A stretch of 64,000 nucleotides of DNA from Thermogutta terrifontis (GCF_002277955.1 NZ_CP018477.1:2003206-2067205); one strand, 5' to 3'; positions 35,432 to 63,841 are shown, counted from the first letter of the stretch. Numbers and translations are program-made. The notes: generated by a model from the sequence alone, not told the origin.

Positions 35432-35631
35432 TTGTCTTCATCACCGTTTCAGTGACGGCTGAATAATGACCGGCAGCCGGGGTTGGGGACGCGGAACCTC
35501 GCCCCGGCTGTGAGTTTGGGATGGACCTTGCGAGTCTTCAATGTGGATGCCCGCCGGAGGCGATCGAGGCGGTACGCATCCATGACAAACCCGAAGACAA
35601 ATCTCGGTATCAGGCATGGGGGAGGCATCCT

Positions 35632-37101: not shown

Positions 37102-37219
37102 TCCCTCGTATCTACCCTGAGAGCAAGTGTTGTGAGGAGCGGTGTCTCAGGGATAAGCTGGACCCCTAAGGATTGCGGACGTAGCGTTGGTTGCACCTGG
37201 TACGGAGGAGATCGGCAAA

Positions 37220-39106: not shown

Positions 39107-39604
39107 CGGATTTCAAGGCCAAATAGAAAAAACAGTTTCATTTGGCGGACAAATTGCGCCATTCTTCACACGGCGGATTCAATTTCCCCGCAGGCTGAAG
39201 CTCTCAATATAAAGCGCGCAGTCCGTCGTGTGGTTTTTGTCGTAATAGTGCGCAGCTCTGGGATCGGTGAGGAGACCCGGGCGAAACGGTGTGAAACCCT
39301 GGCAAACGGGGCGTGGGCTGACGCGGTCGAAGGAAATGCCGATGTCGGTCGGGGATGCGCTATACTTCCCCTGGCGACGTTACCCGCTGACTTGCCAAAA
39401 ATGTGGTATGGAGGTTACATCCGCCCCTGTCATCAAACCGGGCAGGGAAAGATTGTTGTCTTGCGCCGATTCGGAATCGACCAGTGACGCCCAGTCTCTT
39501 CAAACAGGCCGGGCGAGTGCCTTGCTGTTCAGGAGATAGTGACAAGCCTGAGCCTAAAGTTTTTCTCGTCCGTGTGGACAGCTTCTCGATGACGGGAGAG
39601 AGCA

Positions 39605-40990: not shown

Positions 40991-41440
40991 GGGTGAACCT
41001 CCCGGTTCCTTAGCGATGCCTGCGTCGAGTGCGTCAACGGGACTCTTTGGAACTTTGCGGCGCGATCGACGCCCTTTGTTTGTCTGCGGATAGTATAACC
41101 CGACCGACTGGGCAAGCAATGCTCGGAAGCTCTGAGCCATCCCCACTTTGGTATTTAAGGGTCATTCATGAATTGCCTCCGCACCTTTAAAAATAAACAG
41201 GCGGAGGCCGGTAGTTGGTGTGGACTATCCAAGGTGGAAACAGGGAGAGGACAAGTAACTCGTGCCGGGCTGAATCTCGCTCCTGCTCAGGGCGTTTTCG
41301 CGGTCCCTGGCGCTTTCCCGCAGGAAGTAAGTGGCGATGAATCAGTTGGAAGCTACGTCAGATATGGCGTCAAATATGGCGCGGCGGCGTGGCAGTACGA
41401 CAAGGATCTGGGATCGCCGTTCATGTGAACGCAAAATCGA

Positions 41441-43321
41441 TTATCCTGCGCGAAGACGACGTTCAATCTCACGAATTGTTTCGCGAAGAGGTCGCTGGCC
41501 TTCTGAAGAGGCCATGGCCTCTTGGCCCGAAAGCCATTCCTCCACACGCTTTTGGGCCGAGATCACGGTCGCGTGACTGCGTCGTCCGAAAAATCGACCA
41601 ATCTCCGAAAGATTGGCCCTTGTGCATTTGCGAGCGAGCCACATGGCCAGCATACGTGGCTGCGTGACGATGCGATCTTTCCGGTCACTCTGAAGCGTGC
41701 CGGGAGGAAGGGCAAAAGCTCGGCAGACCTCCCTCTCGATATCGGCGAGCGTCACCTGCTTGGTACCTTCGGGCAGAAGGTCGGAAAGGATTTCTCCGGC
41801 AAGCTGCCGATCGGGTACCCGCTTGAGGGCCCTCGCAGCGGCTTCCAAACGTCGGAGGGCACCAATGATCTGACGAACGCTTCGGGCAAACGATTCAGCA
41901 ATCCACTGCTGGACTTCGCGATCCAGGGAAAAATTGGTCGCGAGGCAGAAATTCTCAACGATTTTCACCCGCGTGGCAAAGTCCGGCGGATCGATACGAC
42001 AGACGATCCCACTTTCCAGTCTGCTGCGTAGCTCAGGTGTCAATTCACGAAGTTCCGAGGGCGGTCGGTCCGCGGCACACACGACCTGACAGCCATTTTT
42101 CATCAACGTGTCAAGTGTGTAGAGAAGTTCGATTTGCGTCTGTCGCTTGCCCCCGAAAAACTGAAGGTCATCCAAAATAAGGAGCTGGACGCCCCGGTAT
42201 TTCTGACGAAAAACCGGGATCGTTCCCGATTGAAGGGCCTCCACGTAAGCACTCGTGAATTGCTCGGCAGAAAGATAGAGCGCGGCGACGCGTGGATTCC
42301 GTTTTTTAACTGTCTTCCAAATACCTTCCAGAAGATGTGTTTTGCCGACACCGCTTGGTCCGTGGATCACCAGCGGGGAATAACTCCCCAATTTTCGGGT
42401 GACCGTCTCGGCAGCCGCATATGCTAGTCGGTTACAATCTCCCACCACAAAGGTTTCCAGATCGCCAAGGCCCAGTGCGTTGGCGCGATTCACGGCACGC
42501 GGTTCCGAACCGGCGGAATTGGGGCGACCCTGGGTGCCATGGACATGCGTGGCGTCCAGTGGTTCTTCCCGTTTTTCCTTCGTGTTGCCATTCGCCTCAC
42601 GGCCATCAGGTGCTTCGACCGTCGTGTGAGGGAGGACGCGAAGAAAATCGCCTGACGAGTCGCAGCCGTCGCACGTAGGTTCGATCTCATCATCGCTGGG
42701 ATCGGCTGGTGCTTCGCCTGCGATATGCGGTGCGAAACCGCAAGGTTTGTGGCTCGCATCATTGAGCGCTTCCAGGGTGCCAGCTGTTTCCCGACTCCCC
42801 ACCGCTGACAGAATCGGCTTTGGCGCGGTAAGTGAATCGGAGGTAATGCACTCAGCGCATGAGGCGTCATTCTCCGCGGAACACTCACGGGCGTGCGCTA
42901 AATGAGCAAAGAGGGGCAGGTCTTCCAGCGAAAACGTCTGAGTGTGAGAGGATAAGCTTTCGCGTGAAGTGGCCCTCTTAGTTGCGGCGGCAGATGACCG
43001 AGTACTGCCCTTGCCCGGACGAGTGGTCGGCCTGGCAAGCACGGGCTCTTCTTCTTCCGAAGTACTCAGATTCTCATTCCACTCGTAGTGAACCTGGGGG
43101 ATTTTGCCGAAGACCGCCTGGCAGGCTTCCTCGATTGCGTCGTGAAAGACTGTTCGAATCCAATCGACATAAAAACTGTTGGCCACCTGGAGCGTAAGCT
43201 GGGCACCATCCCAAAGGAAGCGCGTACGTCGGCCGAACCACAAGGCATAGCGTTCATATCCGACCTTATCGGCCAACACCTTTCGGAGGGCCGATATGAC
43301 TTCCTTATCATCCCTGGTCAC
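41441..43321 (-). CDS. dnaA: chromosomal replication initiator protein DnaA (unusually long domain II linker)
   Basis: Domain I (MTRDDKEVISALRKVLADKVGYERYALWF). AAA+ Walker A (IHGPSGVGKTHLL), Walker B (LLILDDLQFF), sensor/box VII. Domain IV DNA-binding signature (IVTQPRMLAMWLARKCTRANLSEIGRFFGRRSHATVISAQKRV). An acidic/Ser/Cys-rich linker of about 250 aa brings the total to 626 aa. Confidence 0.9.
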   Translation of the reverse strand: MTRDDKEVISALRKVLADKVGYERYALWFGRRTRFLWDGAQLTLQVANSFYVDWIRTVFHDAIEEACQAVFGKIPQVHYEWNENLSTSEEEEPVLARPTTRPGKGSTRSSAAATKRATSRESLSSHTQTFSLEDLPLFAHLAHARECSAENDASCAECITSDSLTAPKPILSAVGSRETAGTLEALNDASHKPCGFAPHIAGEAPADPSDDEIEPTCDGCDSSGDFLRVLPHTTVEAPDGREANGNTKEKREEPLDATHVHGTQGRPNSAGSEPRAVNRANALGLGDLETFVVGDCNRLAYAAAETVTRKLGSYSPLVIHGPSGVGKTHLLEGIWKTVKKRNPRVAALYLSAEQFTSAYVEALQSGTIPVFRQKYRGVQLLILDDLQFFGGKRQTQIELLYTLDTLMKNGCQVVCAADRPPSELRELTPELRSRLESGIVCRIDPPDFATRVKIVENFCLATNFSLDREVQQWIAESFARSVRQIIGALRRLEAAARALKRVPDRQLAGEILSDLLPEGTKQVTLADIEREVCRAFALPPGTLQSDRKDRIVTQPRMLAMWLARKCTRANLSEIGRFFGRRSHATVISAQKRVEEWLSGQEAMASSEGQRPLRETIREIERRLRAG

Positions 43322-49245: not shown

Positions 49246-52200
49246 ATGACCTGGCGGCAGCGGCTGATCAGAGAGATCGGTTTCTTCCTAAAATGGGGCC
49301 TTGCTGTTGCCCTGGTTGCCGGGTTTTTCTTTGCCATCTGGCTCTACAAAAGAGTGGATGACGAGCTCCGCAGCGAAATCGAGCGGCGATGTGCGCAGCT
49401 GTGTCCTCATTTGCGAATCCGAATTCGATCAGCTCAGTTGTTGCCCGGCGAGGGGATACAGCTTCGCGGGGTCCGCATCACCATCACGGATTTACCCAAG
49501 GTGACGGCTACAATCGCTGAAATTGAGGAAATCATGCTGGCTGGGCCAGTGGATTACAAGGGGTTGCTTTCTGGCGAAGTTCCCATTCAACGAGTCGTTG
49601 TCCGCCGGCCGCAGGTGCGCATCGCGTGTGGTAGCGATGGACAATGGAATATTTCTCGTTTACTTCCTCTGCCAAAGCTTGCAGGGAGCAAGCATGCCCC
49701 GATTCACATAGAAAACGGCATGGTGGAGATCGTCGATCTTCGCGGCCCGATTCCCACCGCCATCGCATATCGGGACATTCAGATGGAGATTTCTGGCGAC
49801 TCTCTGCCACAATCGGACGGATCGACCGCCGGGATTCGAAAATTCCGCGGCACAATGACAGGTGATTATGTACGCCGAATCGATGTTGAGGGGACATTTG
49901 ATTCCGAAGCACCATGCGTGAGACTGGCCGGCGCGGTCGACTCCCTGGAATTCTCGCCCGAGTGTCAGGCGGCATTTCCCCGGGAAGTGCGACGCACCCT
50001 GCGTCCGCTGGAACATCTTCGTGCTCAGCTTTCACTGACATTCCACCTTTTCTGGGCGGGCGGAAGCAGCACAGTCGTGGACTATGACGTCTCGGGCCAG
50101 ATTCGTCGCGGACGGCTCGATGATCCAAGACTGCCGTATGCCATTACGGATATCCGCGGCTATTTCACCGCATCGCGGGATGAAGTCTCATTGACCGATG
50201 TGACGGCGTTTTCGGGGTCGACGGCATTTGTGGTGCGCTCGGCCAAACTCTTGCACTGGAACCTGGCGGAGTTGGCTGACCTCGACATGCAGATCAACAA
50301 TTTGAAGTTTGATCCAGCACTTCTTCCCCTTTTGCCACCCAAACTTCAGGAGGAATGGCCGAAATACTTTCCGGAAGGAACGGTTCATCTTACTTTGCGT
50401 TTCACCTCACTCGATGACCAGCGTCACTTTCACGTCACTGCCAATTTGGAAAATGCATCGTTTGCCTATTATCGCTTTCCTTACCGGCTTCAGCAGGTTC
50501 AAGGGCGACTGGAACTCACGCCCGAGCGGCTGGGAATTCAGCTCGTGGCAATGGCGGGAACTCAGCCCGTGGAGATTCGCGGGCAGGTTCTCAATCCTCT
50601 GACGGCCCCTGTGACGCAAATCAGCATCAGCGGTCAGCGGATAGCTCTCGATGAGCGGCTGGTGAACGCTGTGCTCGATACGAAGAGCCGTCAAACGTTG
50701 CGGGCCTTGCATTTGGCTGGTTCGGCTGATGTGTGGCTTGGTTTGTGGCAGGATGAGCCGGGTGGCGTGCTCCATCGCCAGATGGAGGCGACCCTCAACG
50801 GATGCTCGATTCGATATGAAGCGTTTCCTTATCCGATTTCCGACATCACTGGCCGCATCGTGATGCGGGACGATGCCTGGTCGTTCCAGGAACTTCGCGG
50901 AAGAAGCGGTCCAGCAGAGATCTCTGCCTACGGTACGCTCCTTCCGCAAAATGGAAGTTCCACTTTACGCCTCGATTTTGAAGCGAAACATCTCCCGTTA
51001 GACAATGAATTGAAGGGCGCCTTTCGCGAAAATCACATCCGTCAGTTATGGGAAGAGCTAGATCCGGCAGGCACCGTCCAGGTACGGGGGACGCTCCTCT
51101 ATACCTCAGGTGAGCCTCTCGACGTCAAATTATGGGCAAGTCCAATTGACCGGGGGCTGACCCTTCAGCCCCGATCTTTTCCCTACCGTTTGGAGGGCAT
51201 CGTGGGCCAATTGAGATACGAGGCTGGAACTCTCTCATTTCATGGGCTCCGCGGACATCATGAAAACACCGAGTTTCAGGCGGATGGATCCTGCCGACTC
51301 TCACAAAACGGAGGCTGGTCACTGGATCTACGGAACTTGTGGATTGACCGCTTGATAGTGGATCGGGCGTTACTTATGGCCTTGCCGGAAGCCCTGAGCC
51401 GCCCTCTCGCCCGTCTCAATATTCAAGGGCCTCTCGTTGTGCGGGGGCAGTTCCGACTGATCAGAGAACACGACGCCTCAGATCGGGGGCCAGGAGCTGA
51501 AATGGTTGCTTCTGCCAGCGACTCGGTCGGCGGGTCGATCCCGCTTCAGGCAGCGTGGGATGTGGTGATCACCCTCGTTCAAAACAGTATGGGAACGAGC
51601 CTGGTATTCGGGAATTTGAATGGAAAAATTCTTTTCCAGGGGCAATATTCGGAGGGAAGGTTTACAGCCGATGGGTATTTGGCTCTGGACGCCCTGCAGG
51701 TGCTCGGGTTGCCGATCAGCCGGTTACGAGGACCATTTCGGGTTGACAATGAATTTGTCATTTTTGGGGGGGACTGGGCTGTCGCTGAATCCGCTCGAGA
51801 GACACCGATGGCGGGTCAACCGGCAAAGTCCCGCCAGCCTTTAACGGCGGAGATTTTTGGAGGCACGTTATCCGGAACCGGTTGGGTGCGTCTTTCCGAC
51901 AAATTCGAGTACGATGTTGCGCTTTCGTTGTTGAAGTCCGATTTCACGGAGCTTGTACGAGAATACCAGAGTAACTCGTCCATCATCCGTGGGACGCTAG
52001 ATGCAGCCGTGCGACTTAAAGGTCAGGGTGACGATATCCAGGGATTGGCCGGTTATGGGAATTTTCAGCTCCGGGAAGCGAATATCTACGAGCTTCCTTT
52101 GATGATCGCACTTTTGAAGATTCTGAGCATACGACAACCGGAGACCACGGCGTTCAGCGAGAGTTCAGGGCAATTTCGAATCGCTGGCCGACACGTCTAT

Positions 52201-52503
52201 CTGGACAGCATCACCTTTTCGGGGGATGCCTTCAGCCTCACCGGCCAGGGTGAAGTAGATTTGGACGGGAACCTGCGATTGATCATGCGGGCGATGCTGG
52301 GACGCCGCGAGATTCAGGTCCCCGTGGTCAAGGAGCTGTTCCGCGGCGCGAGCGAGCAGATTGTGCTTGTTCACGTGGGAGGCAACTTGAGGGAACCAAT
52401 TGTGCGGCGAGAGCCTTTCCCCGGGGTGAACGAGGCCCTCCAAAGGTTCCAACTGGGAAACAGAAGCGTTCGCGAGGGTGAGGCAATCCTCAGGGAGCGG
52501 TGA
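49246..52503 (+). CDS. AsmA/TamB-like envelope-biogenesis protein (N-terminal TM anchor + long beta-rich domain)
   Basis: N-terminal anchor (FFLKWGLAVALVAGFFFAIWLY) followed by AsmA-like pattern (RRPQVRIACGSDGQWNISRLLP). 1085 aa of repetitive beta-strand-rich sequence. Confidence 0.45.
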   Translation: MTWRQRLIREIGFFLKWGLAVALVAGFFFAIWLYKRVDDELRSEIERRCAQLCPHLRIRIRSAQLLPGEGIQLRGVRITITDLPKVTATIAEIEEIMLAGPVDYKGLLSGEVPIQRVVVRRPQVRIACGSDGQWNISRLLPLPKLAGSKHAPIHIENGMVEIVDLRGPIPTAIAYRDIQMEISGDSLPQSDGSTAGIRKFRGTMTGDYVRRIDVEGTFDSEAPCVRLAGAVDSLEFSPECQAAFPREVRRTLRPLEHLRAQLSLTFHLFWAGGSSTVVDYDVSGQIRRGRLDDPRLPYAITDIRGYFTASRDEVSLTDVTAFSGSTAFVVRSAKLLHWNLAELADLDMQINNLKFDPALLPLLPPKLQEEWPKYFPEGTVHLTLRFTSLDDQRHFHVTANLENASFAYYRFPYRLQQVQGRLELTPERLGIQLVAMAGTQPVEIRGQVLNPLTAPVTQISISGQRIALDERLVNAVLDTKSRQTLRALHLAGSADVWLGLWQDEPGGVLHRQMEATLNGCSIRYEAFPYPISDITGRIVMRDDAWSFQELRGRSGPAEISAYGTLLPQNGSSTLRLDFEAKHLPLDNELKGAFRENHIRQLWEELDPAGTVQVRGTLLYTSGEPLDVKLWASPIDRGLTLQPRSFPYRLEGIVGQLRYEAGTLSFHGLRGHHENTEFQADGSCRLSQNGGWSLDLRNLWIDRLIVDRALLMALPEALSRPLARLNIQGPLVVRGQFRLIREHDASDRGPGAEMVASASDSVGGSIPLQAAWDVVITLVQNSMGTSLVFGNLNGKILFQGQYSEGRFTADGYLALDALQVLGLPISRLRGPFRVDNEFVIFGGDWAVAESARETPMAGQPAKSRQPLTAEIFGGTLSGTGWVRLSDKFEYDVALSLLKSDFTELVREYQSNSSIIRGTLDAAVRLKGQGDDIQGLAGYGNFQLREANIYELPLMIALLKILSIRQPETTAFSESSGQFRIAGRHVYLDSITFSGDAFSLTGQGEVDLDGNLRLIMRAMLGRREIQVPVVKELFRGASEQIVLVHVGGNLREPIVRREPFPGVNEALQRFQLGNRSVREGEAILRER

Positions 52504-56259: not shown

Positions 56260-56452
56260 TGCAACGGGCCCAGAATGTTCCATGTGTTCGGAACGTTGTC
56301 CGGACCAACGCGGTGGTTACGACGGGGTGATCACAAGGTCCATAGGCGTTGGGTAGGATAGGCGACGATTGAGGCGGTATCGGAGTTGGTCATCGACAGA
56401 CGTCGCGCTTGTTTTGAGAAGGCACGCGTCAAAGCTTTGCAGAGCGGTCAAC

Positions 56453-57475
56453 ATGCAGCAAACGCTTCTCCGTCTAGGCACTCAGATAGAGAACCGCTTG
56501 CCAACGGGTCTTTTGGGCTTGTTTGGAGCGTTGATCTTCTGCGCCGTTGTTTTGGACTCGAGTTCGATTCGAGCAGCCCCACAACAACAGCGGAGTGGCT
56601 TCCTGGTGGGGTTCGAGGCGGCACCGTTTTTGCCACTCCCTGAACCCGGACCTCCGTCCGCCCAGGTGAAGGAAGGTCTGGGTGAATCGCGTGAAAAAAC
56701 TGTTCAAAAAGACCAAACGACAGCGCAGCCGCAACAACCCGAGGTCGCGGAATCTAAAGCTGTTAAGAAAGACGCCGGACTGCCATCGCAGCAGTCTTCC
56801 TTCGGTGTATGGGAAATCATCAAAGCAGGCGGGACGGTGGGGTTCATCATCATCGGCCTCTCCCTGGTGGCTGGTGCCCTGGTTGTCGAGCAGCTCATCA
56901 CGCTTCGTAAATCGGTGCTTATGCCCCCGGAGGTCGTGAGCCAACTGGGTCAGGCGATGGCCGCTCGCGATTCAAAGGGACTGATGGCCACTTGTGAAGC
57001 CCATCCGTGCGTCTTCACAGATGTACTGAAGGCCGGGCTGGCTGAGTGGGAAGGTGGATGGCACCAAGTGGAAAAAGCGCTGGAGGATGCCCTTACGGAA
57101 TACACCGCCAAACTTCTCCGCAAAGTGGAGTATTTGTCTGTGATCGGTAACCTGGCGCCGATGCTGGGGCTGTTGGGAACGGTGGTGGGTATGATCCTGG
57201 CGTTTAAAACAGTGGCCGAGACTCAGGGGGCAGCACGGGCCGCCGATTTGGCACAGGCGATTTATCTGGCCCTTGTGACGACCGTGGAGGGGTTGATCGT
57301 CGCCATCCCCTCGCTTGCCGCCTACGCCTATTTTCGCAATCGCGTGGATGAATTGATGGCAGAAGTGGCCGTTACCCTGCAACAACTTTTGGCACCGTTG
57401 CGGCGGCGGCGTGTGGCCGCAAAGCCTCCTGTCAGTTCCTCGGGAGCACCACCGTCTGGAAGTGTCCGCGGATGA
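56453..57475 (+). CDS. MotA/TolQ/ExbB-family proton-channel protein (with N-terminal signal peptide and periplasmic extension)
   Basis: ExbB core (LSVIGNLAPMLGLLGTVVGMILAF ... AIYLALVTTVEGLIVAIPSLAAYAYF). Start taken at ATG 56453 (MQQTLLRLG... hydrophobic signal). The track ORF starts at 56369. Confidence 0.8.
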   Translation: MQQTLLRLGTQIENRLPTGLLGLFGALIFCAVVLDSSSIRAAPQQQRSGFLVGFEAAPFLPLPEPGPPSAQVKEGLGESREKTVQKDQTTAQPQQPEVAESKAVKKDAGLPSQQSSFGVWEIIKAGGTVGFIIIGLSLVAGALVVEQLITLRKSVLMPPEVVSQLGQAMAARDSKGLMATCEAHPCVFTDVLKAGLAEWEGGWHQVEKALEDALTEYTAKLLRKVEYLSVIGNLAPMLGLLGTVVGMILAFKTVAETQGAARAADLAQAIYLALVTTVEGLIVAIPSLAAYAYFRNRVDELMAEVAVTLQQLLAPLRRRRVAAKPPVSSSGAPPSGSVRG

Positions 57476-57897
57476 GAGCGAGCGTTCATCCGGTCAGATT
57501 GCCCGTGAAGTTGAATCTCACGCCGATGATCGACGTGACGTTTCAGCTAATTTTGTTTTTTTTGCTTGCCGGACACTTGGCTCAACAGGAAAGCGCCGTG
57601 GATCTGGATCTGCCGGTGGCACAAACCGGCCACAAAGCGATGGAGAGTCCCACGCGACGACTTGTCATCAATGTGGCCCAAGATGGAACCCTCATCGTTG
57701 GTGGTGAGATGATTGATCTCGAACGGTTGGGCCAGATTCTCTCAGCGGATCGGAAGACGAGCGAATCCCTGGAAGTGCGGATTCGAACTGATCGCCGGAC
57801 ACCTTACGGCAAGATCGCACCCCTTCTCATTCGCTGCACGGAGAGCGGGATCTGGAATGTTTCCTTTGCAGTTATCGGTGAAGAGACATCCCCTTAA
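57472..57897 (+). CDS. ExbD/TolR-family biopolymer transport protein
   Basis: LTPMIDVTFQLILFFLLAG motif (conserved Asp in TM). Start overlaps the exbB stop by 4 nt. Confidence 0.8.
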   Translation: MRASVHPVRLPVKLNLTPMIDVTFQLILFFLLAGHLAQQESAVDLDLPVAQTGHKAMESPTRRLVINVAQDGTLIVGGEMIDLERLGQILSADRKTSESLEVRIRTDRRTPYGKIAPLLIRCTESGIWNVSFAVIGEETSP

Positions 57898-57933
57898 AGG
57901 CTCCAGAAGATTGATCGTGAGTCAGGGTGCGTC

Positions 57934-58377
57934 ATGAGACGGCAATCAGTGTTGAACCAGAAACAGGACCTGGATTTGCCGATGACGCCAATGATTGACG
58001 TCGTCTTTCAGTTGATTATCTTCTTCCTCTGCACAACCCGATTTACACCGCTTGAGCAAGTCCTGCCAACCCCACTCGATGAGTCCGGCGGCTCGCGAAG
58101 AGTGGAGTCGCCTCCACCAGAAGTTGTGAATCTGACGGAAGTTGTCATCAAGCTGGCTGATGGTCAGCCGGTCAGGATCACTCTTAATGGTCGGCAGGTG
58201 AGCGATTTCGACGAACTCGGGATGACGCTTCAGGCTGTTGCACGTGTTCGCGTGGATGTTCCCGTGGTTATCGATGCAGGCTTTGCAGTTCCAATGCAGG
58301 ACGTCGTCCAGGCATATGATCTCTGCCGGAAGGTTGGTTTCCAGAAGATCCATCTTGCGGCTCCGCCACGTCCATGA
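57934..58377 (+). CDS. ExbD/TolR-family biopolymer transport protein (second copy)
   Basis: MTPMIDVVFQLIIFFLCT motif. Stop overlaps the start of the downstream TPR gene by 4 nt (ATGA). Confidence 0.8.
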   Translation: MRRQSVLNQKQDLDLPMTPMIDVVFQLIIFFLCTTRFTPLEQVLPTPLDESGGSRRVESPPPEVVNLTEVVIKLADGQPVRITLNGRQVSDFDELGMTLQAVARVRVDVPVVIDAGFAVPMQDVVQAYDLCRKVGFQKIHLAAPPRP

Positions 58378-61016
58378 AACGGTTGTTGGCTTTCTTGGTT
58401 ATTCTGTTGGAGTTGGGCCTGGTGCCGTTAGAGGGCACGGCAGATGTTACTGAAGACCTGCGGTTCATTCAATCGTTGCGGTCTCGTCGTCTCTTTCGGC
58501 TGGCCGAGTATCAGTGTGAGCTCGCGTTGCAGCGGCCGGGCTTAAGTACCGGTGACAAGGCAGTACTCACCGTCCAGTTTCTGGAAACGCTCAATGAACA
58601 CGCCCTTTATGCCGAAGTTGGCCGGCGGACAGCCTGCTGGCAACGGGCTCAGGAATTGACCAGCAGCTTCGAGAAAGATCACGAAGAGACCGATGGGAGC
58701 CTCGTCGTGCGCCTGTCGGGCGTGAAAGTTCTCGTGGAGCAGGGAAAAATCCTGCGGGAGGAGGCCGAGTTGACTCTTCTGGCCACACGTTCTTCGTCCT
58801 CGCTGTGGGATGAGATGATGAAGCCGTCGCGCACAGTTCTCCGGAAGGCTGGAGAGCAACTGAAGGCCCTCCGCGATGAAATCGCGCGATCACTCAGGCG
58901 CGCGCAAAAAGTGACGGAGACTGACGGCCTTCCACTTGGCGAGCAACAGCTTCTGAGCCTCGAAAAACAGGCCCAATTCTGGACAGCGCTTGCCGCATGT
59001 GAACTGGCACGGACCTATCCTGCTGGGTCGGAAGATTATCTGGCTATGCTCAATGATGCGGCGAGCAACCTCCGGGGCCTCAGTGAACTGCCGCTTGACC
59101 ATCCTCTCGGCTTTCCCGCCCGGCTCTATTATGCGGATGTCAATCGACTGCTCGGCCAGAAGGAAGCGGCATGGAAAATCCTCGCCGGTCTCGATGATGA
59201 GCAACTCTCCAAAGATCGACAACAAGAACTCCTTGCGGGTCGGTTGCAATGGGCCACCACTTTTGAAGAAGAACAACTGGCCAAAACGCTGTTTGAAAGG
59301 GCCATGACAGTTGAGGTTTCACTTTCGCCACCTTTGGCTTTCGCGATGCTCGAAACCGCTACCTGGTTTTGGAAAAAAGCAGGGGAAAAAGGCGACAAAA
59401 GTTCTGAGGAGTGGGAGGTCCAGATCAAAAAGCTGGTGGAAGTCCTCAGACAGAGCGGCTCGACGTATTGGACCCACCGGGGAGAACTCCTCGTGGCGCA
59501 TGCCGCGTCGGCAAGTGCAAGCGCAAACAGCACAACTCTGGATCTTTATGTGGCGGAGAACGCTTATCGAGCTGGAAGGTGGCAAGAGGCCATCGAGGCT
59601 TATGACCGTGTTGCTCAAACAGCAAAAAAAGCCGGGCAGGAGGATGTGGCCTTTCAGTGCAGTTGGGCTGCTGCGGCCATTGCCCAACAACAGTCGCTGC
59701 ATCAGGAAGCGTGGCAGCGGTTCAACACGCTTGCCCAGGAGTTTCCCCACCAGGCGAAGGCGTCCCAAGCTGCGTTTCTGGCGCTGGTCAATCTTGGCCA
59801 ACTGGTAGCAAAAGACGAGAAAGCATACCTCGCTCTTTACGAACGAGAACTCCGCGCGTATCTCGATCGATTCCCCCGGGGGAAAGAGGCGTATCTCGTG
59901 CGATTCCGCCTGGCGCAACTCCTTGAGTATCAATCCCGGATACAAGAGGCCGTTGGCATGTACCTGGACACCCTGGAGCAATTGCCTGCCGACCAAGGCG
60001 GAGAAACGAGTGGTAGTTCTCAGCAGGGGGATAGTACGAGTGACCTGCTGCAGGAGACCAAACGAGAAGAGGTGCTTGAAAAAGTCTTCCTGGGGCTCGA
60101 TCGGTGCCTGTCCGTTCTCTGCGCGGGGACAAGGCAGGATTTCTCCGCGGAGGCTCGCCAGGTTGCGCAGCGTCTTCATGCCTGGAGTATCGTCGGGAAC
60201 GGGGATCGCACGGATCAGCGCTATCGACTCATGGCCGAGGAGCGCGCCATCCGACTGATGCTGTGGGAATGCGGTGATCCCGTATTCGCGGAAAAAATTC
60301 TCCTAACACGGTTCCCCGATCCAGATCATTTTTGGAAAGAATTCCGAACGCTAAGCAATGACGTCTCAAGCACATCCGGGTGGATAACCCTCTGGCTGGA
60401 GGTCATGGCTCAATTGGGGCGAGAAAGAGAGGCACAGTATTGGTGCGAACAACTTCGCCATCTGGAGTTTGATGTTCGCTGGGAATGGGCGAGCGGCGTC
60501 ACCGAGAAACTCTCCCAGGCAAAACCGAATCGAGCTCAGGCGATCGCCCGATGGGTTGTGGCAGCGGTCCCGGACTTTGTCCAGCAATACGCGACACATC
60601 CCCAAGATTGGAAGGTCCAAGCCGGTTTGAAGTATGCCCGGCTGCTCGTGATGGCAAACCTCCATGAGGACTCGCTGGGCTGGATGCGCCGCCTGGCGCA
60701 GGAATTTCCTGAACATGGTGAAATTCAGGAAAACCTTGCGCTTCTTTTGGCTTATTCGGACGACGTTTTGCTACGGAACGAATCTCTCCAGAAATTTCAG
60801 GAAATTGCTCGGCGAACGCCGGAGGGATCTCCTCGGTGGTTTCGGGCAAAGTATATGACGGCCTGGTTGCTCCACAATTTAGGGAGAACACGCGATGCCT
60901 GGGAGATGCTGAGTCTGCTTGAAACTCTCCACCCTGACCTGGGAGGAGAGCCCCTGAGGGGGAAAATCTTGTCCCTGAAAGACGAATGCCAGAGACATTC
61001 GCCGCAAGACAGATAA
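58374..61016 (+). CDS. secreted TPR-like/alpha-solenoid protein (880 aa) translationally coupled to exbB-exbD-exbD
   Basis: Signal peptide/anchor (MKRLLAFLVILLELGLVPLEGTA). Remainder all-alpha with repeated helical-hairpin (TPR-like) periodicity. No TonB C-terminal domain and no Pro-rich TonB spacer. Confidence 0.45.
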   Translation: MKRLLAFLVILLELGLVPLEGTADVTEDLRFIQSLRSRRLFRLAEYQCELALQRPGLSTGDKAVLTVQFLETLNEHALYAEVGRRTACWQRAQELTSSFEKDHEETDGSLVVRLSGVKVLVEQGKILREEAELTLLATRSSSSLWDEMMKPSRTVLRKAGEQLKALRDEIARSLRRAQKVTETDGLPLGEQQLLSLEKQAQFWTALAACELARTYPAGSEDYLAMLNDAASNLRGLSELPLDHPLGFPARLYYADVNRLLGQKEAAWKILAGLDDEQLSKDRQQELLAGRLQWATTFEEEQLAKTLFERAMTVEVSLSPPLAFAMLETATWFWKKAGEKGDKSSEEWEVQIKKLVEVLRQSGSTYWTHRGELLVAHAASASASANSTTLDLYVAENAYRAGRWQEAIEAYDRVAQTAKKAGQEDVAFQCSWAAAAIAQQQSLHQEAWQRFNTLAQEFPHQAKASQAAFLALVNLGQLVAKDEKAYLALYERELRAYLDRFPRGKEAYLVRFRLAQLLEYQSRIQEAVGMYLDTLEQLPADQGGETSGSSQQGDSTSDLLQETKREEVLEKVFLGLDRCLSVLCAGTRQDFSAEARQVAQRLHAWSIVGNGDRTDQRYRLMAEERAIRLMLWECGDPVFAEKILLTRFPDPDHFWKEFRTLSNDVSSTSGWITLWLEVMAQLGREREAQYWCEQLRHLEFDVRWEWASGVTEKLSQAKPNRAQAIARWVVAAVPDFVQQYATHPQDWKVQAGLKYARLLVMANLHEDSLGWMRRLAQEFPEHGEIQENLALLLAYSDDVLLRNESLQKFQEIARRTPEGSPRWFRAKYMTAWLLHNLGRTRDAWEMLSLLETLHPDLGGEPLRGKILSLKDECQRHSPQDR

Positions 61017-61018
61017 AA

Positions 61019-63841
61019 TCATCCGGATTTTTTGGGTAGGTTGTCGCCCAGCAGTTGCTCTACCACCGGTTTCAGGAGTTCCGACCACAACTGGTATCCC
61101 TTGTCGCTCAGATGAAGGCCGTCGTTGACGAAAAGGTCTGGTTGCGGATGGCCATCGGGGCCCAGCATGGGTTTCTCGACGTCCAGAAAATGCACTTTGG
61201 ATTCCGGATGGGCCCGGCAGTATTCCTCAATGAGATGGTTGGCGGCTCGAATTTTGTCGATCAGATGCCATCGGGCAAGCGATGGCTTGATCCCGATGAA
61301 GATGACCGGGGCGGTGACACCTTCGGAACGGATGACCTGCAGGAAATCGGCGAAGCGCCGACAAACGATCTCCGGTGATGCCCCGGCTCCAATGTCGTTG
61401 TCCCCGGCATAGAAGACAATCAGTTGAGGGTGGTAGGGAGCAATAATGCGCTTCGCGTAATGGGTAACCTCATGAATCTGTGAGCCGCCAAAGCCCCGAT
61501 TGATTGTGATCCAGTGGGGAAACCATCGCGACACATCCCATCGCACGATGCTGGAACTTCCCACGAAGAGAATGGCTCCGTCGGGTGGCGGATGAAGTTT
61601 GTCTGCTTCTTCGAATTTCTTGATGGCGGATTCCCAGCGTTCGGGCCCCGTGTCCTTTTTCTTCTCCTCGTAACTCGCAAGCCTCGCGGAGATCGCACGC
61701 CGCCATGACAGCAGTGCGCGATTCGCAGGTCGCGGGCCGATTTTCTCAAAAGGAATCGCCTCAAATCCTGGAAGTGTGGATTGAAGGGGGGCATCCGGCT
61801 TCAGCCGCCAGTCTTCGGTCTCGGGATTGACAAAGAAACGGGCTGTGGCCTCCAGCGGAAGTATCACATTGTTTTCCATGACGAGGTACGACCGCGCACG
61901 ATTCTCGATGTTTTCCCAGGTTCCCCCGAAGCAAAGGTTTTTGCGAATGATATTGCCTTTCGGTGCCGCAGGTTCGTCCTCGAGGATATTGACCAGTGTC
62001 GGATAGGCTTTTCGCCAGAGTTCACTCTTATAGGGCATGGCTTTGAGACGCTCCGTCATTGTCGTGGGCACGTGGTAGGAAGCCCAGCCGAGAGCGCGGG
62101 CATCGACATGCACTGCCGGGCGGCAGTCAATGAATATGTTATTCTCTACGAGATTGTCTCGCCCACCTCCGATAAATGCAGCGCGTGTTACCTGATAAAA
62201 GATATTGTTGGTGATTTGTGTGCCGCAGAACATATCGTCCAGGTACACTCCCATACAGCCGCGGTTTTGAAAACCCGATATATGATGAAAGTAATTCCAG
62301 GAGATGACGGTCCCCCGCATGGTCCAGTCACGGCCGGCGTAGATCGCTCCCGCATCGTTGGACTCCAGGCAGACGTGGTCGATCTCGTTCCATGAAATTG
62401 TGTGGTTGTTACCGGAAAAACCGACCGCCTGATGGGGCGCATGGTGGATGTGATTATGGAGGACATGCTGTCCAACGCCGCCGATCGAGACTCCCGCGCG
62501 ATACATGGGATGGATTTGCCCGTAGTCATGGATTTCGTTATCCTCCACGATGTGGCCTGCGGGCGAGAGCGTGGCCCGATCGCCCCCTGTGGCGGAGACG
62601 CCCCCTTCGCCGAGTTCATGGAGATGACTCTGGCGTACGACGCACTGACGACCTCCACGTATCTGAACCGCCCAGCCACCCGTCAATAGGAATTCACAGT
62701 TTTCGACGGTGCAATTTTCACAATTCTCGCACACCAGTGCCGTGCCGCGACAATGGGCGAGCCGCAGACCCCGCAAGGTGACATTTCTTACTGAAACCAG
62801 TTGCATAATTCCAGAACTGACAGAAACGGTGGGCTGGCCATCTTCAAGGCGGGCGGGATCGGTGGGAGAGTCGGGCGGCCAGAAATAGAGCTGGCCCGTT
62901 ACTCTGTCGAGATAATATTCGCCCGGTGTGTCGAGTTCACTGAGGAGATTGAAGGCATACCACCACTGTCCTTTTCGGTAGCCATAGTAATGGTAAGGTG
63001 GTTTAACAGCAATGAGGGAACGATCGGGATCAATGAGGGCGACCGGATGCCGCTGGTCGGACCAGTCCCAGAACCAGTAGCCATGAACCCAGGGGTCCTT
63101 CTCCTTCACCCAGCGGGATGGACGATTGCCCTCGTAAATAAACTTGCCGACTTTGTCGCCCTTTTTACCGCGTACGTCGATGGGCTGTTCACCCAATACG
63201 TCCACAATTTTGGTAAAACCCTGGTTCGGCCATCGCGCTAATGTCATTCGGCGATTTTGATAGCAAAGCTCGAGACCTCCGCCTCCCGCCGAGCCGTAGT
63301 CGGACACCCCAAGTTCTTTAAGATCGGCAATGAAGACGTGCTCGCGTGCCTCTTGAGGGAGGAGCGGCGACACGTTGGCCACCTCAATCGCACGTTTCCA
63401 GTTCGTGACGAGTCGTCCGCCACTCCATACCACGGCGCCAGGCGTCTTTGCTTCAAATTCGAGGCTGGCGATCGACTTCGGTAGATCACGGAGGGTAACG
63501 GGTTCGGACAATTCCAGCCGGCCAGGTTCGAAAATGACCTTGACCCTGACAACAGTGCCTTTTTCTGCAACTTGATTCAAGGCCTGGCGGAGTTGGGCAA
63601 GTGTCCGCCATGGTCCGGTGCGATTTTTGGCATCCGGAGAAGGCGACAGCCCGGACCACTCATCGTTTCCCTGGGCAGAAACGTAGAAGGTGACCTGGCC
63701 CGACGCTGCTTCCTCGCCAGATGCGATCGCCCCTTGTGGCAACAGCCACCCGGTGATCAGGCAACTCAAGATCGCCCAGCGGACAAGAGTGCCTTTTGTT
63801 TCAGCAAGCATGGTGCAACTTTCCTTATTCGAGGAAATCAA
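61019..63841 (-). CDS. secreted bifunctional protein: N-terminal parallel beta-helix domain + C-terminal SGNH/GDSL hydrolase (carbohydrate esterase-like) domain
   Basis: Signal peptide (WAILSCLITGWLLPQGAIASG). Beta-helix rungs (NVTLRGLRLAHCRGTALVCENCENCTVENCEF, NNIFYQVTRAAFIGGGRDNLVENNIFIDC). C-terminal SGNH blocks (ILFVGSSSIVRWD, GFGGSQ, FYAGDNDIG, DGLHLSDKGYQ). Confidence 0.55.
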   Translation of the reverse strand: MISSNKESCTMLAETKGTLVRWAILSCLITGWLLPQGAIASGEEAASGQVTFYVSAQGNDEWSGLSPSPDAKNRTGPWRTLAQLRQALNQVAEKGTVVRVKVIFEPGRLELSEPVTLRDLPKSIASLEFEAKTPGAVVWSGGRLVTNWKRAIEVANVSPLLPQEAREHVFIADLKELGVSDYGSAGGGGLELCYQNRRMTLARWPNQGFTKIVDVLGEQPIDVRGKKGDKVGKFIYEGNRPSRWVKEKDPWVHGYWFWDWSDQRHPVALIDPDRSLIAVKPPYHYYGYRKGQWWYAFNLLSELDTPGEYYLDRVTGQLYFWPPDSPTDPARLEDGQPTVSVSSGIMQLVSVRNVTLRGLRLAHCRGTALVCENCENCTVENCEFLLTGGWAVQIRGGRQCVVRQSHLHELGEGGVSATGGDRATLSPAGHIVEDNEIHDYGQIHPMYRAGVSIGGVGQHVLHNHIHHAPHQAVGFSGNNHTISWNEIDHVCLESNDAGAIYAGRDWTMRGTVISWNYFHHISGFQNRGCMGVYLDDMFCGTQITNNIFYQVTRAAFIGGGRDNLVENNIFIDCRPAVHVDARALGWASYHVPTTMTERLKAMPYKSELWRKAYPTLVNILEDEPAAPKGNIIRKNLCFGGTWENIENRARSYLVMENNVILPLEATARFFVNPETEDWRLKPDAPLQSTLPGFEAIPFEKIGPRPANRALLSWRRAISARLASYEEKKKDTGPERWESAIKKFEEADKLHPPPDGAILFVGSSSIVRWDVSRWFPHWITINRGFGGSQIHEVTHYAKRIIAPYHPQLIVFYAGDNDIGAGASPEIVCRRFADFLQVIRSEGVTAPVIFIGIKPSLARWHLIDKIRAANHLIEEYCRAHPESKVHFLDVEKPMLGPDGHPQPDLFVNDGLHLSDKGYQLWSELLKPVVEQLLGDNLPKKSG

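What the first reader, a model, noticed from the sequence alone, without database searches (positions are those of the whole stretch)
61019..63841. 940-aa secreted fusion of a parallel beta-helix domain with an SGNH/GDSL esterase domain
The fusion combines a beta-helix (glycoside hydrolase or polysaccharide lyase-like) module with a C-terminal SGNH hydrolase showing all four conserved blocks (GSSS, G, GxND, DxxH-like DGLHLSDKG). It resembles a single-polypeptide de-acetylase plus depolymerase, as needed to attack acetylated glycans. The exact combination may represent an unclassified CAZy architecture.
Basis: seen in the sequence. Interest (0 to 1): 0.5.

Follow-up and report, generated by a model that had tools for sequence, protein, structure and literature searches.

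The report
Secreted glycosidase-like plus acetylesterase fusion enzyme
This is a real gene from a Thermogutta-like planctomycete that joins a beta-helix module distantly related to GH141 glycosidases to an acetyl-esterase domain; it is most likely an ordinary two-in-one enzyme for breaking down acetylated polysaccharides, but its sugar-cleaving half belongs to a large family nobody has characterised.

Summary
The ORF is real (61019..63841, minus strand). Translation most likely starts at the ATG at 63811, giving 930 aa with a signal-peptide-like N-terminus.

**C-terminal domain (residues 722-930).** This is an intact SGNH esterase: Ser753, Gly775/776, Asn805, Asp897 and His900 are invariant in 19 fused homologs. 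Its closest solved relatives are acetyl-specific esterases, namely PAF acetylhydrolase Ib and Bacteroides sialate O-acetylesterase.

**N-terminal module (residues 36-700).** This module belongs to a very large uncharacterised beta-helix family: 4498 clusters at 50% identity and at least 574 species genomes, in Planctomycetota, Armatimonadota, Poribacteria and others.
- It is a remote homolog of GH141 (hhalign 99.8%; Foldseek to BT_1002 E 3e-21).
- Across 122 divergent members, the only near-universally conserved acidic residues in the helix core are Asp486, Asp525 and Asp526.
- Asp486 aligns with catalytic Asp523 of BT_1002.

**Fusion partners.** The family has independently fused to a second esterase fold, and also to a GH29 fucosidase, a PL22-like domain and CBM9-like and NPCBM sugar-binding domains. 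This supports a deacetylase-plus-glycosidase reading.

**Open points.** The substrate is unknown and CAZy family assignment could not be tested.

**Verdict.** This is a new member of a known kind, of moderate-to-low interest.

The parts
61019..63811 (-). Coding sequence from the probable ATG start to the stop codon (930 aa plus stop)
   Evidence: ORF list; upstream sequence with ATG and SD-like motif; codon check; full-length homologs P0001 86 %, P0002-P0018 56-66 %
63812..63841 (-). 10-codon extension to the farthest in-frame TTG; probably not translated
   Evidence: one search lists the TTG start; the homologs align from query residue 2 of the ATG-start protein
63819..63826 (-). Shine-Dalgarno-like AAGGAAAG, about 8-10 nt upstream of the ATG
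   Evidence: read directly from the sequence; relatives carry GAGGTGA at the same place
63722..63811 (-). Residues 1-30, signal-peptide-like N-terminus (MLAETKGTLVRWAILSCLITGWLLPQGAIA|SG)
   Evidence: sequence; AF2 helix 5-23 followed by a low-confidence stretch at 23-35; inferred, no predictor was run
62837..63706 (-). Residues 36-325: N-terminal cap and inserted beta-sandwich (GH141_M-like) domain, ending in the LDTPGEYYLD...LYFWPP motif
   Evidence: matches 9rx2_A and 5mqp N-terminal regions; weak Pfam GH141_M hit at 295-322; hhalign to GH141 covers this part
62087..62836 (-). Residues 326-575: right-handed parallel beta-helix core
   Evidence: Pfam Beta_helix; AF2 strand pattern with pLDDT mostly above 90; Foldseek best match GH141 BT_1002, E 3e-21
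62354..62356 (-). Asp486 (ESNDAGAIY), candidate catalytic carboxylate
   Evidence: 98 % conserved (D/E) in 122 divergent relatives; aligned to BT_1002 Asp523 by hhalign; Asp523 is reported as essential in PMC12786026
62234..62239 (-). Asp525-Asp526 (GVYLDDM), candidate second catalytic carboxylate(s)
   Evidence: 100 % and 98 % conserved; 39-40 residues after Asp486, against 41 between BT_1002 Asp523 and Asp564; D525 is conserved in 9rx2; the equivalence is positional, not aligned
61712..62086 (-). Residues 576-700: C-terminal cap of the beta-helix module (helices plus short strands)
   Evidence: AF2 secondary structure; conserved in the stand-alone ~690-aa homologs
61649..61711 (-). Residues 701-721: flexible, poorly conserved linker
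   Evidence: pLDDT below 50 at 709-720; variable in length and sequence among fused homologs
61022..61648 (-). Residues 722-930: SGNH/GDSL esterase domain
   Evidence: Pfam PF13472, E 2e-16; profile against PDB gives PAF-AH Ib 2e-18 and sialate O-acetylesterase 1e-15; Foldseek TM about 0.8 to 6xpg/7pzg
61553..61555 (-). Ser753, nucleophile of block I (G-S-S-S)
   Evidence: aligned with the nucleophile Ser of 4iyj and PAF-AH; invariant in 19 fused homologs
61397..61399 (-). Asn805 of block III (G-D-N-D), oxyanion hole
   Evidence: invariant
61112..61123 (-). Asp897-Gly-Leu-His900, block V (DxxH), acid and base of the triad
   Evidence: invariant; aligned with DyLH of PAF-AH Ib

Best explanation
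The gene encodes an exported, bifunctional carbohydrate-active enzyme of a Thermogutta-like planctomycete.

- **C-terminal SGNH domain.** It uses a Ser753/His900/Asp897 triad with a Gly775-776/Asn805 oxyanion hole. It strips O-acetyl groups from a polysaccharide or its oligosaccharides.
- **N-terminal module.** This ~665-residue module is a right-handed beta-helix with an inserted beta-sandwich and is a remote homolog of GH141. It then cleaves glycosidic bonds using the carboxylates Asp486 and Asp525/Asp526.
- **Linker.** The two modules are joined by a flexible ~20-residue linker, so both work on the same substrate chain.

**Shown:** the gene, the domain architecture, the homologies and the conservation of the residues.

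**Inferred:** export, esterase and glycosidase activity, the order of action and the substrate. The substrate is probably an acetylated, possibly anionic (uronic-acid-, fucose- or sulfate-bearing) heteropolysaccharide. Its identity is unresolved.
For: **Architecture.** The gene and its two-domain layout are confirmed and recur in 19 clusters at 90 % identity. The AF2 model has mean pLDDT 89.5 and shows two well-folded modules.

**SGNH domain.**
- All four blocks are invariant.
- The closest solved relatives are acetyl-specific esterases.

**Beta-helix module.**
- Foldseek best hit is GH141 BT_1002, E 3e-21, far ahead of any other beta-helix.
- hhalign against GH141 alignments gives 99.8 % and 99.4 %.
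- D486 is aligned to the essential D523 of BT_1002.
- D486, D525 and D526 are the only near-universally conserved acidic residues of the helix core among 122 representatives with at most 50 % mutual identity.

**Rosetta-stone fusions of the same beta-helix family.**
- A second SGNH cluster (P0125) and an unrelated alpha/beta-hydrolase BD-FAE-type esterase (P0124).
- GH29 alpha-L-fucosidase (P0142).
- PL22-like oligogalacturonate lyase domain (L040).
- CBM9-like and NPCBM domains.

**Context in relatives.** A PL11 rhamnogalacturonan lyase and an SSF symporter lie upstream in L002 and L010. Esterases or sulfatases lie nearby in L003, L005, L006 and L040.

**Organism.** Thermogutta grows on xylan, pectin and xanthan gum (PMC5673643). 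From my own knowledge, these polymers are commonly O-acetylated.
Against: - No activity has been measured for any member of this beta-helix family. Its closer solved relative, PDB 9rx2, is named only 'Parallel beta-helix repeat protein', and no paper on it was found.
- Similarity to characterised GH141 is only visible by profile-profile or fold comparison. A BT_1002-type HMM scores the query 11.7 bits, and Pfam GH141_M scores 13.2 bits against a cut-off of 27.
- The second catalytic Asp is matched only by position, because the hhalign alignments stop about 14 residues before it.
- Gene neighbourhoods of stand-alone homologs are not conserved.
- The recurrent Gfo/Idh/MocA neighbour (13 of 81 loci) is no more frequent than chance in genomes this rich in that family.
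- The window ends 190 nt upstream of the start codon, so the gene's own operon partners are unseen.
- The 3-D distance between the carboxylates, and the geometry between the two active sites, could not be inspected.
Confidence: 0.72

Rival explanations
1. The beta-helix module is a polysaccharide lyase rather than a hydrolase. It would cleave uronic-acid-containing chains by beta-elimination, with the SGNH domain deacetylating first.
For: - Many beta-helix enzymes are lyases.
- Within the closer relatives (57 sequences, about 50 % identity) several Arg are invariant: R193, R230, R279, R303, R355, R412, R494, R551, R572. This would suit carboxylate recognition.
- A PL11 lyase lies nearby in L002 and L010, and L040 carries a PL22-like fusion.
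- Some relatives give faint Pel9A-like Pfam hits.
Against: - The Pel9A-like hits cover only the N-terminal cap (profile positions 9-39), and the query itself has none.
- The best fold and profile matches by a wide margin are to the hydrolase family GH141, with its catalytic Asp conserved.
- Most of the Arg are not conserved across the wider family, whereas the three Asp are.
Confidence: 0.1
2. The beta-helix module is non-catalytic: a carbohydrate-binding or scaffold module that targets the esterase. The only enzymatic activity would then be deacetylation.
For: - Beta-helix/CASH domains often act as binding modules.
- The weak hits to NosD-type models belong to non-glycosidase proteins.
- No activity is known for this family.
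Against: - Most family members are stand-alone ~690-aa proteins with no other domain. A pure targeting module would not be expected to stand alone this often.
- About 50 % identity persists across phyla, with an invariant Asp cluster at the position of a GH141 catalytic residue.
- The family itself carries appended CBM9-like and NPCBM binding modules, as catalytic modules usually do.
- The NosD scores are far below their cut-offs (25.5 against 300).
Confidence: 0.07
3. The enzyme does not serve nutrient acquisition. Instead it remodels the cell's own envelope or exopolysaccharide, for example an O-acetylated matrix glycan or peptidoglycan.
For: - The immediate neighbours in the window are housekeeping or envelope genes: ExbB/ExbD, XseA and DapF.
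- From my own knowledge, SGNH esterases include O-acetyl-peptidoglycan esterases.
- No classical polysaccharide-utilisation locus surrounds the gene.
Against: - There is no conserved linkage to cell-wall or EPS biosynthesis genes in 81 loci.
- The fusion partners are degradative: GH29, PL22-like, BD-FAE esterase and CBMs.
- The family is concentrated in phyla known as polysaccharide degraders (PMC11685898).
- In planctomycetes, scattered CAZyme genes are the norm, so the lack of a locus says little.
Confidence: 0.08

Closest known systems
CAZy family GH141 (founding member BT_1002 alpha-L-fucosidase of Bacteroides thetaiotaomicron, PDB 5MQP; also endo-xylanase Xyn141E and the Wf141 endo-fucanases)
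   Same: - Right-handed beta-helix with an N-terminal cap and an inserted beta-sandwich ending in the (L)D-x-PGEWY...Y-x-x-P motif.
- Best Foldseek match (E 3e-21, TM 0.62-0.65 on the target).
- hhalign probability 99.8 %.
- Asp486 aligns with catalytic Asp523, and a second invariant Asp lies about 40 residues downstream, as in BT_1002 (D564).
- GH141 modules are also known in multi-domain enzymes of Planctomycetota (PMC11685898).
   Different: - Only 13-20 % identity.
- A BT_1002-type HMM does not detect the query (11.7 bits), and Pfam GH141_M is below threshold.
- The module has a longer C-terminal cap: about 165 residues after the second Asp, against about 55 in BT_1002.
- It has a DD doublet instead of DE.
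- Substrate is unknown.
- No GH141 member fused to an SGNH esterase turned up in the literature I searched.
PDB 9rx2, 'Parallel beta-helix repeat protein' (717 aa)
   Same: - Closest solved sequence relative of the beta-helix module: E 6e-26 with the single sequence and 2e-51 with the family profile.
- Shares the N-terminal cap and the PGEW motif.
- Both Asp positions are conserved (lgDGnGiY and GiRtDgg).
   Different: - It is a stand-alone protein without an esterase.
- It has an insertion of about 40 residues in the helix core.
- No publication or function was found in the searchable library, and it is absent from the Foldseek PDB copy.
PAF acetylhydrolase Ib alpha subunits and Bacteroides/Phocaeicola vulgatus sialate O-acetylesterase EstA (PDB 1WAB, 6NJC, 7PZG); uncharacterised Bacteroides GDSL proteins (4IYJ, 4PPY, 3P94)
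   Same: - Closest solved relatives of the SGNH domain: profile E 2e-18 to 1e-15, Foldseek TM about 0.8 at 20-25 % identity.
- Same four blocks and the same Ser/Asp/His triad.
- The characterised members (PAF-AH Ib, EstA) are specific for acetyl esters.
   Different: - Here the domain is the C-terminal module of a 930-aa protein.
- Block I reads GSSS instead of GDS.
- Its substrate is presumably an acetylated polysaccharide, not PAF or sialic acid.
Known bifunctional glycosidase/esterase CAZymes (for example xylanase-acetylxylan esterase and cellulase-CE2 fusions, and the BD-FAE esterases of PMC8165983)
   Same: One polypeptide couples removal of ester decorations with backbone or side-chain cleavage. 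The logic proposed here is the same.
   Different: The glycosidase-like partner is an uncharacterised GH141-like family, and the esterase is of the PAF-AH/sialate-esterase SGNH type rather than a classified CE family with a solved structure.

Membership tests
SGNH/GDSL hydrolase superfamily (Pfam PF13472 Lipase_GDSL_2) | Profile HMM score above the curated cut-off | tested here: met
   61.5 bits against a cut-off of 32.9, residues 773-918 of the 940-aa ORF
SGNH/GDSL hydrolase superfamily | Block I nucleophile Ser in a G-x-S motif near the N-terminus of the domain | tested here: met
   G751-S752-S753; S753 is aligned with the nucleophile of 4iyj and PAF-AH; invariant in 19 homologs
SGNH/GDSL hydrolase superfamily | Block II Gly and block III G-x-N-D Asn (oxyanion hole) | tested here: met
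   NRGFG775G776S and G803-D-N805-D are invariant, except that one homolog (P0018) has GDNG
SGNH/GDSL hydrolase superfamily | Block V D-x-x-H (acid and base of the triad) | tested here: met
   D897-G-L-H900 is invariant and aligned with DyLH of PAF-AH Ib
SGNH/GDSL hydrolase superfamily | Three-layer alpha/beta/alpha fold superposable on solved members | tested here: met
   Foldseek TM 0.79-0.82 (normalised on the target), rmsd 2.6-3.5 A to 6xpg/7pzg; domain pLDDT mostly above 90
SGNH/GDSL hydrolase superfamily | Measured esterase activity (acetyl esters) | not testable with these tools
   Needs purified protein
CAZy carbohydrate-esterase families of SGNH fold (CE2, CE3, CE6, CE12, CE16, CE17, CE20) | Significant sequence similarity to a classified member | tested here: inconclusive
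   The profile search of PDB at E <= 0.01 gave 27 hits. Judging from their molecule names and my recollection of CAZy's CE structures, I recognised none as a CE2, CE6, CE12 or CE17 entry. The only CE-like hit is the fungal acetyl esterase 5b5s/5b5l at E 0.002; I recall it as CE3 but did not check. The nearest relatives are PAF-AH and sialate esterases. dbCAN/CAZy was not available.
GH141 | Right-handed beta-helix with N-terminal cap and inserted beta-sandwich domain (fold of BT_1002) | tested here: met
   Foldseek 5mqp E 3e-21, TM(target) 0.62-0.65, 650-790 aligned columns; the next beta-helix hit is at E 5e-8 with TM below 0.3
GH141 | Significant sequence similarity to characterised members (the CAZy criterion) | tested here: inconclusive
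   Profile-profile comparison gives 99.8 %, E 3e-30, and the family profile against 5mqp gives 6e-19. However, a BT_1002-type HMM against the query scores 11.7 bits, and Pfam GH141_M scores 13.2 against a cut-off of 27. Some family members do pass GH141_M (P0012, 39 bits).
GH141 | Catalytic Asp equivalent to BT_1002 Asp523 | tested here: met
   Asp486 is aligned to the D of HMYDVAGIY in both hhalign runs. D523 is mapped to that motif by counting. Asp486 is 98 % conserved.
GH141 | Catalytic Asp equivalent to BT_1002 Asp564 | tested here: inconclusive
   Asp525/526 (100 % and 98 % conserved) lie 39-40 residues after Asp486, against a spacing of 41 in BT_1002. The hhalign alignments end before this position.
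GH141 | dbCAN/CAZy assignment and glycosidase activity | not testable with these tools
Beta-helix polysaccharide lyases (for example PL9, Pfam Pel9A-like_beta_helix) | Profile match over the catalytic helix | tested here: not met
   The query has no PF22842 hit. In relatives the hit is faint and limited to profile positions 9-39, the N-terminal cap.
NosD (nitrous-oxide reductase maturation, TIGR04247 / PF05048) | Score above the curated cut-off | tested here: not met
   TIGR04247 scores 25.5 bits against 300; PF05048 scores 22.2 against 23.6. This is generic beta-helix repeat similarity only.

The most novel reading that the evidence does not exclude
The ~690-aa beta-helix module (HGYWFWDW...ESNDAG...VYLDD family) is the catalytic domain of a new glycoside-hydrolase family, or of a deeply divergent GH141 branch with a new specificity. 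It would be dedicated to an acetylated, anionic environmental heteropolysaccharide, such as a fucose- or uronic-acid-bearing microbial or algal exopolysaccharide. Its wide spread in Planctomycetota, Armatimonadota, Poribacteria, Hydrogenedentes and Verrucomicrobiota would make it a missing enzyme in the turnover of a recalcitrant glycan. The SGNH and BD-FAE fusions would mark obligatory deacetylation as part of that pathway.
Probability: 0.3. Interest if true: 0.55.

Novelty: new member of a known kind. Interest (0 to 1): 0.3.

Why it matters
Enzymes that join a glycosidase to an esterase are a familiar solution for attacking decorated polysaccharides, so the architecture itself is not surprising.

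The value lies in the N-terminal module. It belongs to a very large and strongly conserved family that has never been characterised (4498 clusters at 50 % identity with E <= 1e-30). The family occurs in phyla that dominate the breakdown of complex glycans in hot springs, sediments, sponges and digesters.

The natural fusions give a concrete, testable hypothesis for what that family does. These are two unrelated esterase folds, a GH29 fucosidase, a PL22-like domain and CBM9-like and NPCBM binding domains. They also tell an experimenter which mutants (D486, D525, D526, S753, H900) and which substrates to try. A thermophilic bifunctional deacetylase/glycosidase could also be of biotechnological use.

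Tried and rejected
- **PDB 9RX2 in the literature.** No paper was found. A Nature 2026 hit on 'beta-helix' turned out to concern cupin halogenases and is irrelevant.
- **NCBIfam.** No specific family, only sub-threshold NosD and GDSL lipase hits.
- **Metalloenzyme idea.** The invariant His and Cys among close relatives (H456, H460, H470, C519) suggested a metal site. I dropped this because those residues are not conserved across the wider family: 75 %, 90 %, 84 % and 20 % (24 of 122 sequences) respectively.
- **Gene-neighbourhood analysis of 81 loci.** The only recurrent neighbour is Gfo/Idh/MocA, in 13 of 81 loci. I judged this to be at chance level, because the window alone holds two such genes in about 55 genes. 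DUF1559/pilin-like neighbours are generic to these phyla.
- **Upstream sequence.** The 190 nt upstream in the window has no detectable similarity to the relatives' Gfo gene or intergenic region, so the upstream gene cannot be seen in the window.
- **HMM of BT_1002-type GH141 against the query.** Not significant. HMMER's own alignment of the 5mqp fragment fell two coils out of register, and I replaced it with the hhalign result.
- **Thermogutta terrifontis transcriptome paper.** It does not mention this protein type.
- **Rfam and tRNA scans of the window.** Nothing found.
- **Lipoprotein reading of Cys17.** Considered and rejected, because the hydrophobic stretch before it is too short and the residue at -2 is atypical.
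Full report
**1. Observation**

Ten codons downstream lies an ATG at 63811, preceded by AAGGAAAG at 63819-63826. Full-length homologs align from residue 2 of the ATG-start protein. I therefore use the 930-aa protein and its numbering; codon coordinates were checked.

The N-terminus (MLAETKGTLVRWAILSCLITGWLLPQGAIA|SG) looks like a Sec signal peptide. AlphaFold models residues 5-23 as a helix followed by a disordered stretch. Export is therefore inferred, not shown.

The gene is convergent with an ExbB-ExbD-ExbD-880-aa operon, and the two coding regions end two bases apart. The window ends 190 nt upstream of the start codon. That stretch is non-coding and cannot be aligned to relatives, so the gene's own upstream partners are not visible.

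**2. Domains**

Pfam finds Beta_helix (47.9 bits) and Lipase_GDSL_2 (61.5 bits), both above their cut-offs. It also gives sub-threshold NosD and GH141_M hits. NCBIfam has no specific model.

An AlphaFold2 model built on 57 sequences has mean pLDDT 89.5. It shows two well-folded modules joined by a low-confidence linker at about 700-721.

**3. The esterase module (residues 722-930)**

All four SGNH blocks are present and invariant in the 19 fused homologs:
- Block I: G751-S-S753-S.
- Block II: RGFG775-G776-S.
- Block III: G803-D-N805-D.
- Block V: D897-G-L-H900.

A profile of the domain finds the following in the PDB:
- PAF acetylhydrolase Ib alpha subunits (E 2e-18).
- The Bacteroides protein 4iyj (2e-17).
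- The sialate O-acetylesterases 7pzg and 6njc (5e-16 and 1e-15).

In these alignments Ser753 and Asp897/His900 fall on the catalytic triad. Foldseek gives TM about 0.8 to the same proteins.

Going by the molecule names of the 27 PDB hits at E <= 0.01, I recognised no CE2, CE6, CE12 or CE17 structure among them. The domain is therefore an intact esterase whose characterised relatives are all acetyl-specific. CE-family assignment could not be tested.

**4. The beta-helix module (residues 36-700)**

*Family size and spread.*
- The module alone, as proteins of about 690 aa, is very widespread and unusually conserved, with about 50 % identity across phyla.
- A full scan of 1.84 billion representatives gives 4498 clusters at 50 % identity with E <= 1e-30.
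- A scan of GTDB species genomes finds at least 574 genomes. All of the best 80 are MAGs, labelled as Planctomycetota (Thermoguttaceae, Pirellulales, Phycisphaerae), Armatimonadota (including Fervidibacter), Poribacteria, Hydrogenedentes, Verrucomicrobiota or unclassified bacteria.
- The nearest relative of the query is 86 % identical (P0001). Named relatives are Thermogutta MAGs, so the window comes from a Thermogutta-like planctomycete.

*Relation to GH141.*
- By sequence, the closest solved protein is 9rx2, a 'Parallel beta-helix repeat protein' (E 6e-26; 2e-51 with the family profile). Next is GH141 BT_1002, PDB 5mqp (6e-19).
- By fold, 5mqp is the best match by far: E 3e-21 and TM 0.62-0.65. 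The next beta-helix hit is at E 5e-8 with TM below 0.3.
- I rebuilt GH141 alignments from BT_1002-like sequences. Profile-profile comparison gives 99.8 % and 99.4 % probability over 371-424 columns at 17-20 % identity.

*Candidate catalytic residues.*
- BT_1002 needs Asp523 and Asp564 for activity (PMC12786026). By counting, these lie in HMYD(523)VAGIY and FYLYTD(564)EG.
- Both hhalign runs place Asp486 of the query (ESND(486)AGAIY) on Asp523.
- The alignments stop about 14 residues before the second site. There the query has GVYLD(525)D(526)M, 39-40 residues after Asp486, against a spacing of 41 in BT_1002.
- In an alignment of 122 family representatives with at most 50 % mutual identity, only 26 positions are at least 97 % conserved. 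The only acidic ones in the helix core are Asp486 (98 %), Asp525 (100 %) and Asp526 (98 %).
- His, Cys and most Arg residues that look invariant among close relatives are not conserved at this depth. This removes the metal-site idea and weakens the lyase idea.

*Limits of the GH141 link.* A BT_1002-type HMM does not detect the query (11.7 bits), and GH141_M is below threshold in the query although above it in some family members. The module is therefore a remote GH141 homolog. Whether CAZy would file it in GH141 is open.

**5. Evidence on function from fusions and context**

The SGNH fusion occurs in two clusters at 50 % identity (P0001 and P0125). It occurs in 19 clusters at 90 % identity, which are Thermogutta MAGs, other Planctomycetota MAGs or unnamed metagenome sequences.

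The same beta-helix family has also been joined to:
- an unrelated alpha/beta-hydrolase esterase of the BD-FAE/Abhydrolase_3 type carrying a GFSAG motif (P0124);
- a GH29 alpha-L-fucosidase (P0142; E 4e-92);
- a PL22-like oligogalacturonate-lyase domain (L040; 78.7 bits);
- an FGE-sulfatase-like domain (P0148);
- CBM9-like (the most common partner), NPCBM and GH2_N-like sugar-binding domains;
- a second copy of itself plus TPR repeats, in proteins of about 1500 aa.

Two independent fusions to different esterase folds are the best support for a functional coupling between this module and deacylation.

Neighbourhoods are otherwise poorly conserved:
- In Thermogutta relatives a TAT-signal Gfo/Idh/MocA gene lies directly upstream. 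In L002 and L010 a PL11 rhamnogalacturonan lyase and an SSF symporter precede it.
- The Gfo/Idh/MocA neighbour (13 of 81 loci) is no more frequent than expected. That family makes up about 4 % of the genes in this window.
- Sulfatases or esterases lie nearby in several loci.

The partner domains point in two directions. One is pectic or uronic-acid glycans (PL11, PL22-like). The other is fucose-bearing or sulfated glycans: GH29, sulfatases, and the known GH141 activities of fucosidase and endo-fucanase (PMC12786026, PMC11685898). I cannot decide between them.

Thermogutta terrifontis grows on xylan, pectin and xanthan gum (PMC5673643). From my own knowledge, these polymers are commonly acetylated.

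**6. Mechanism proposed**

The exported protein deacetylates its glycan substrate with the SGNH triad (Ser753 nucleophile, His900/Asp897, oxyanion hole Gly775-776/Asn805). It then hydrolyses glycosidic bonds with the Asp486 and Asp525/526 carboxylates of the GH141-like groove. The flexible linker keeps both activities on one chain.

Shown: the gene, the architecture, the homologies and the residue conservation. Inferred: export, both activities, their order and the substrate.

Rivals:
- The module is a lyase rather than a hydrolase (0.10).
- The module is non-catalytic (0.07).
- The enzyme remodels the cell's own envelope or matrix (0.08).

**7. Comparison and novelty**

In working principle it resembles the many known glycosidase-esterase CAZymes. 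It is a clear member of the SGNH superfamily, since all defining features were tested and met.

It is a remote homolog of GH141. The fold and the first catalytic Asp are met. Sequence-level membership and the second Asp are inconclusive. dbCAN could not be run.

The fused proteins are already in public databases, annotated only as 'GDSL-type esterase/lipase family protein', 'right-handed parallel beta-helix repeat-containing protein' or 'hypothetical protein'.

I rate it a new member of a known kind. Interest is moderate-to-low (0.3). The main value is as an entry point to a very large uncharacterised GH141-like family, with concrete residues and substrates to test.

Noticed in passing
window 56369-61016 (+): An ExbB(MotA/TolQ)-ExbD-ExbD operon is followed by an 880-aa protein with no Pfam hit. 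It is convergent with the finding's gene, with only two bases between the two coding ends and so no room for an intrinsic terminator. The same arrangement is kept in Thermoguttaceae relatives: the full operon in L001, L002, L010 and L011, and at least the large ORF plus a following small ORF in L012 and L013.
   Followed up: partly
window 41441-43321 (-): dnaA (Bac_DnaA, DnaA_N and DnaA_C domains). The cumulative GC skew falls until about 30 kb and rises afterwards, so the window probably lies close to the replication origin.
   Followed up: no
window 34094-41146: A small group of glycan-related genes lies 20-27 kb from the finding: a TAT-signal Gfo/Idh/MocA oxidoreductase (34094-35431), a Pec_lyase (PL10-like) protein (35521-37101), a sulfatase with HEAT repeats (37187-39106) and a second Gfo/Idh/MocA gene (39605-41146, minus strand).
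   Followed up: no
window 49246-52503 (+): A 1085-aa protein with only a weak sub-threshold AsmA-like hit. A gene of matching length (1086 aa) sits at the corresponding position in the closest relative's contig (L001).
   Followed up: no
P0012, P0019-P0046 (relatives, about 1500 aa; Hydrogenedentes and others): Proteins that appear to carry two beta-helix regions (shown for P0012 only), several with TPR repeats. P0012 scores 39 bits on Pfam GH141_M, above the cut-off, and the precomputed Pfam column lists GH141_M for most of the others, unlike the query.
   Followed up: partly
P0124 (928 aa), P0142 (1219 aa), L040:3484-6576: The same beta-helix family is fused to an alpha/beta-hydrolase BD-FAE-type esterase (P0124), to a GH29 alpha-L-fucosidase (P0142) and to a PL22-like oligogalacturonate-lyase domain (L040). 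In L040 two sulfatases and a PL11-like/FG-GAP beta-propeller protein are encoded downstream of the fusion gene.
   Followed up: partly
PDB 9rx2 (sequence only): A recently deposited 717-aa 'Parallel beta-helix repeat protein' is the closest solved relative of the family. It is not in the Foldseek PDB copy (entries up to 2026-04-08), and no paper mentioning it is in the searchable library.
   Followed up: partly
window 1-64000: No tRNA gene and no Rfam family at gathering threshold anywhere in the 64 kb. Long antisense ORFs inside the finding's gene (for example 61781-62395 +, 204 aa) are probably shadow ORFs of a gene with 56 % G+C.
   Followed up: yes
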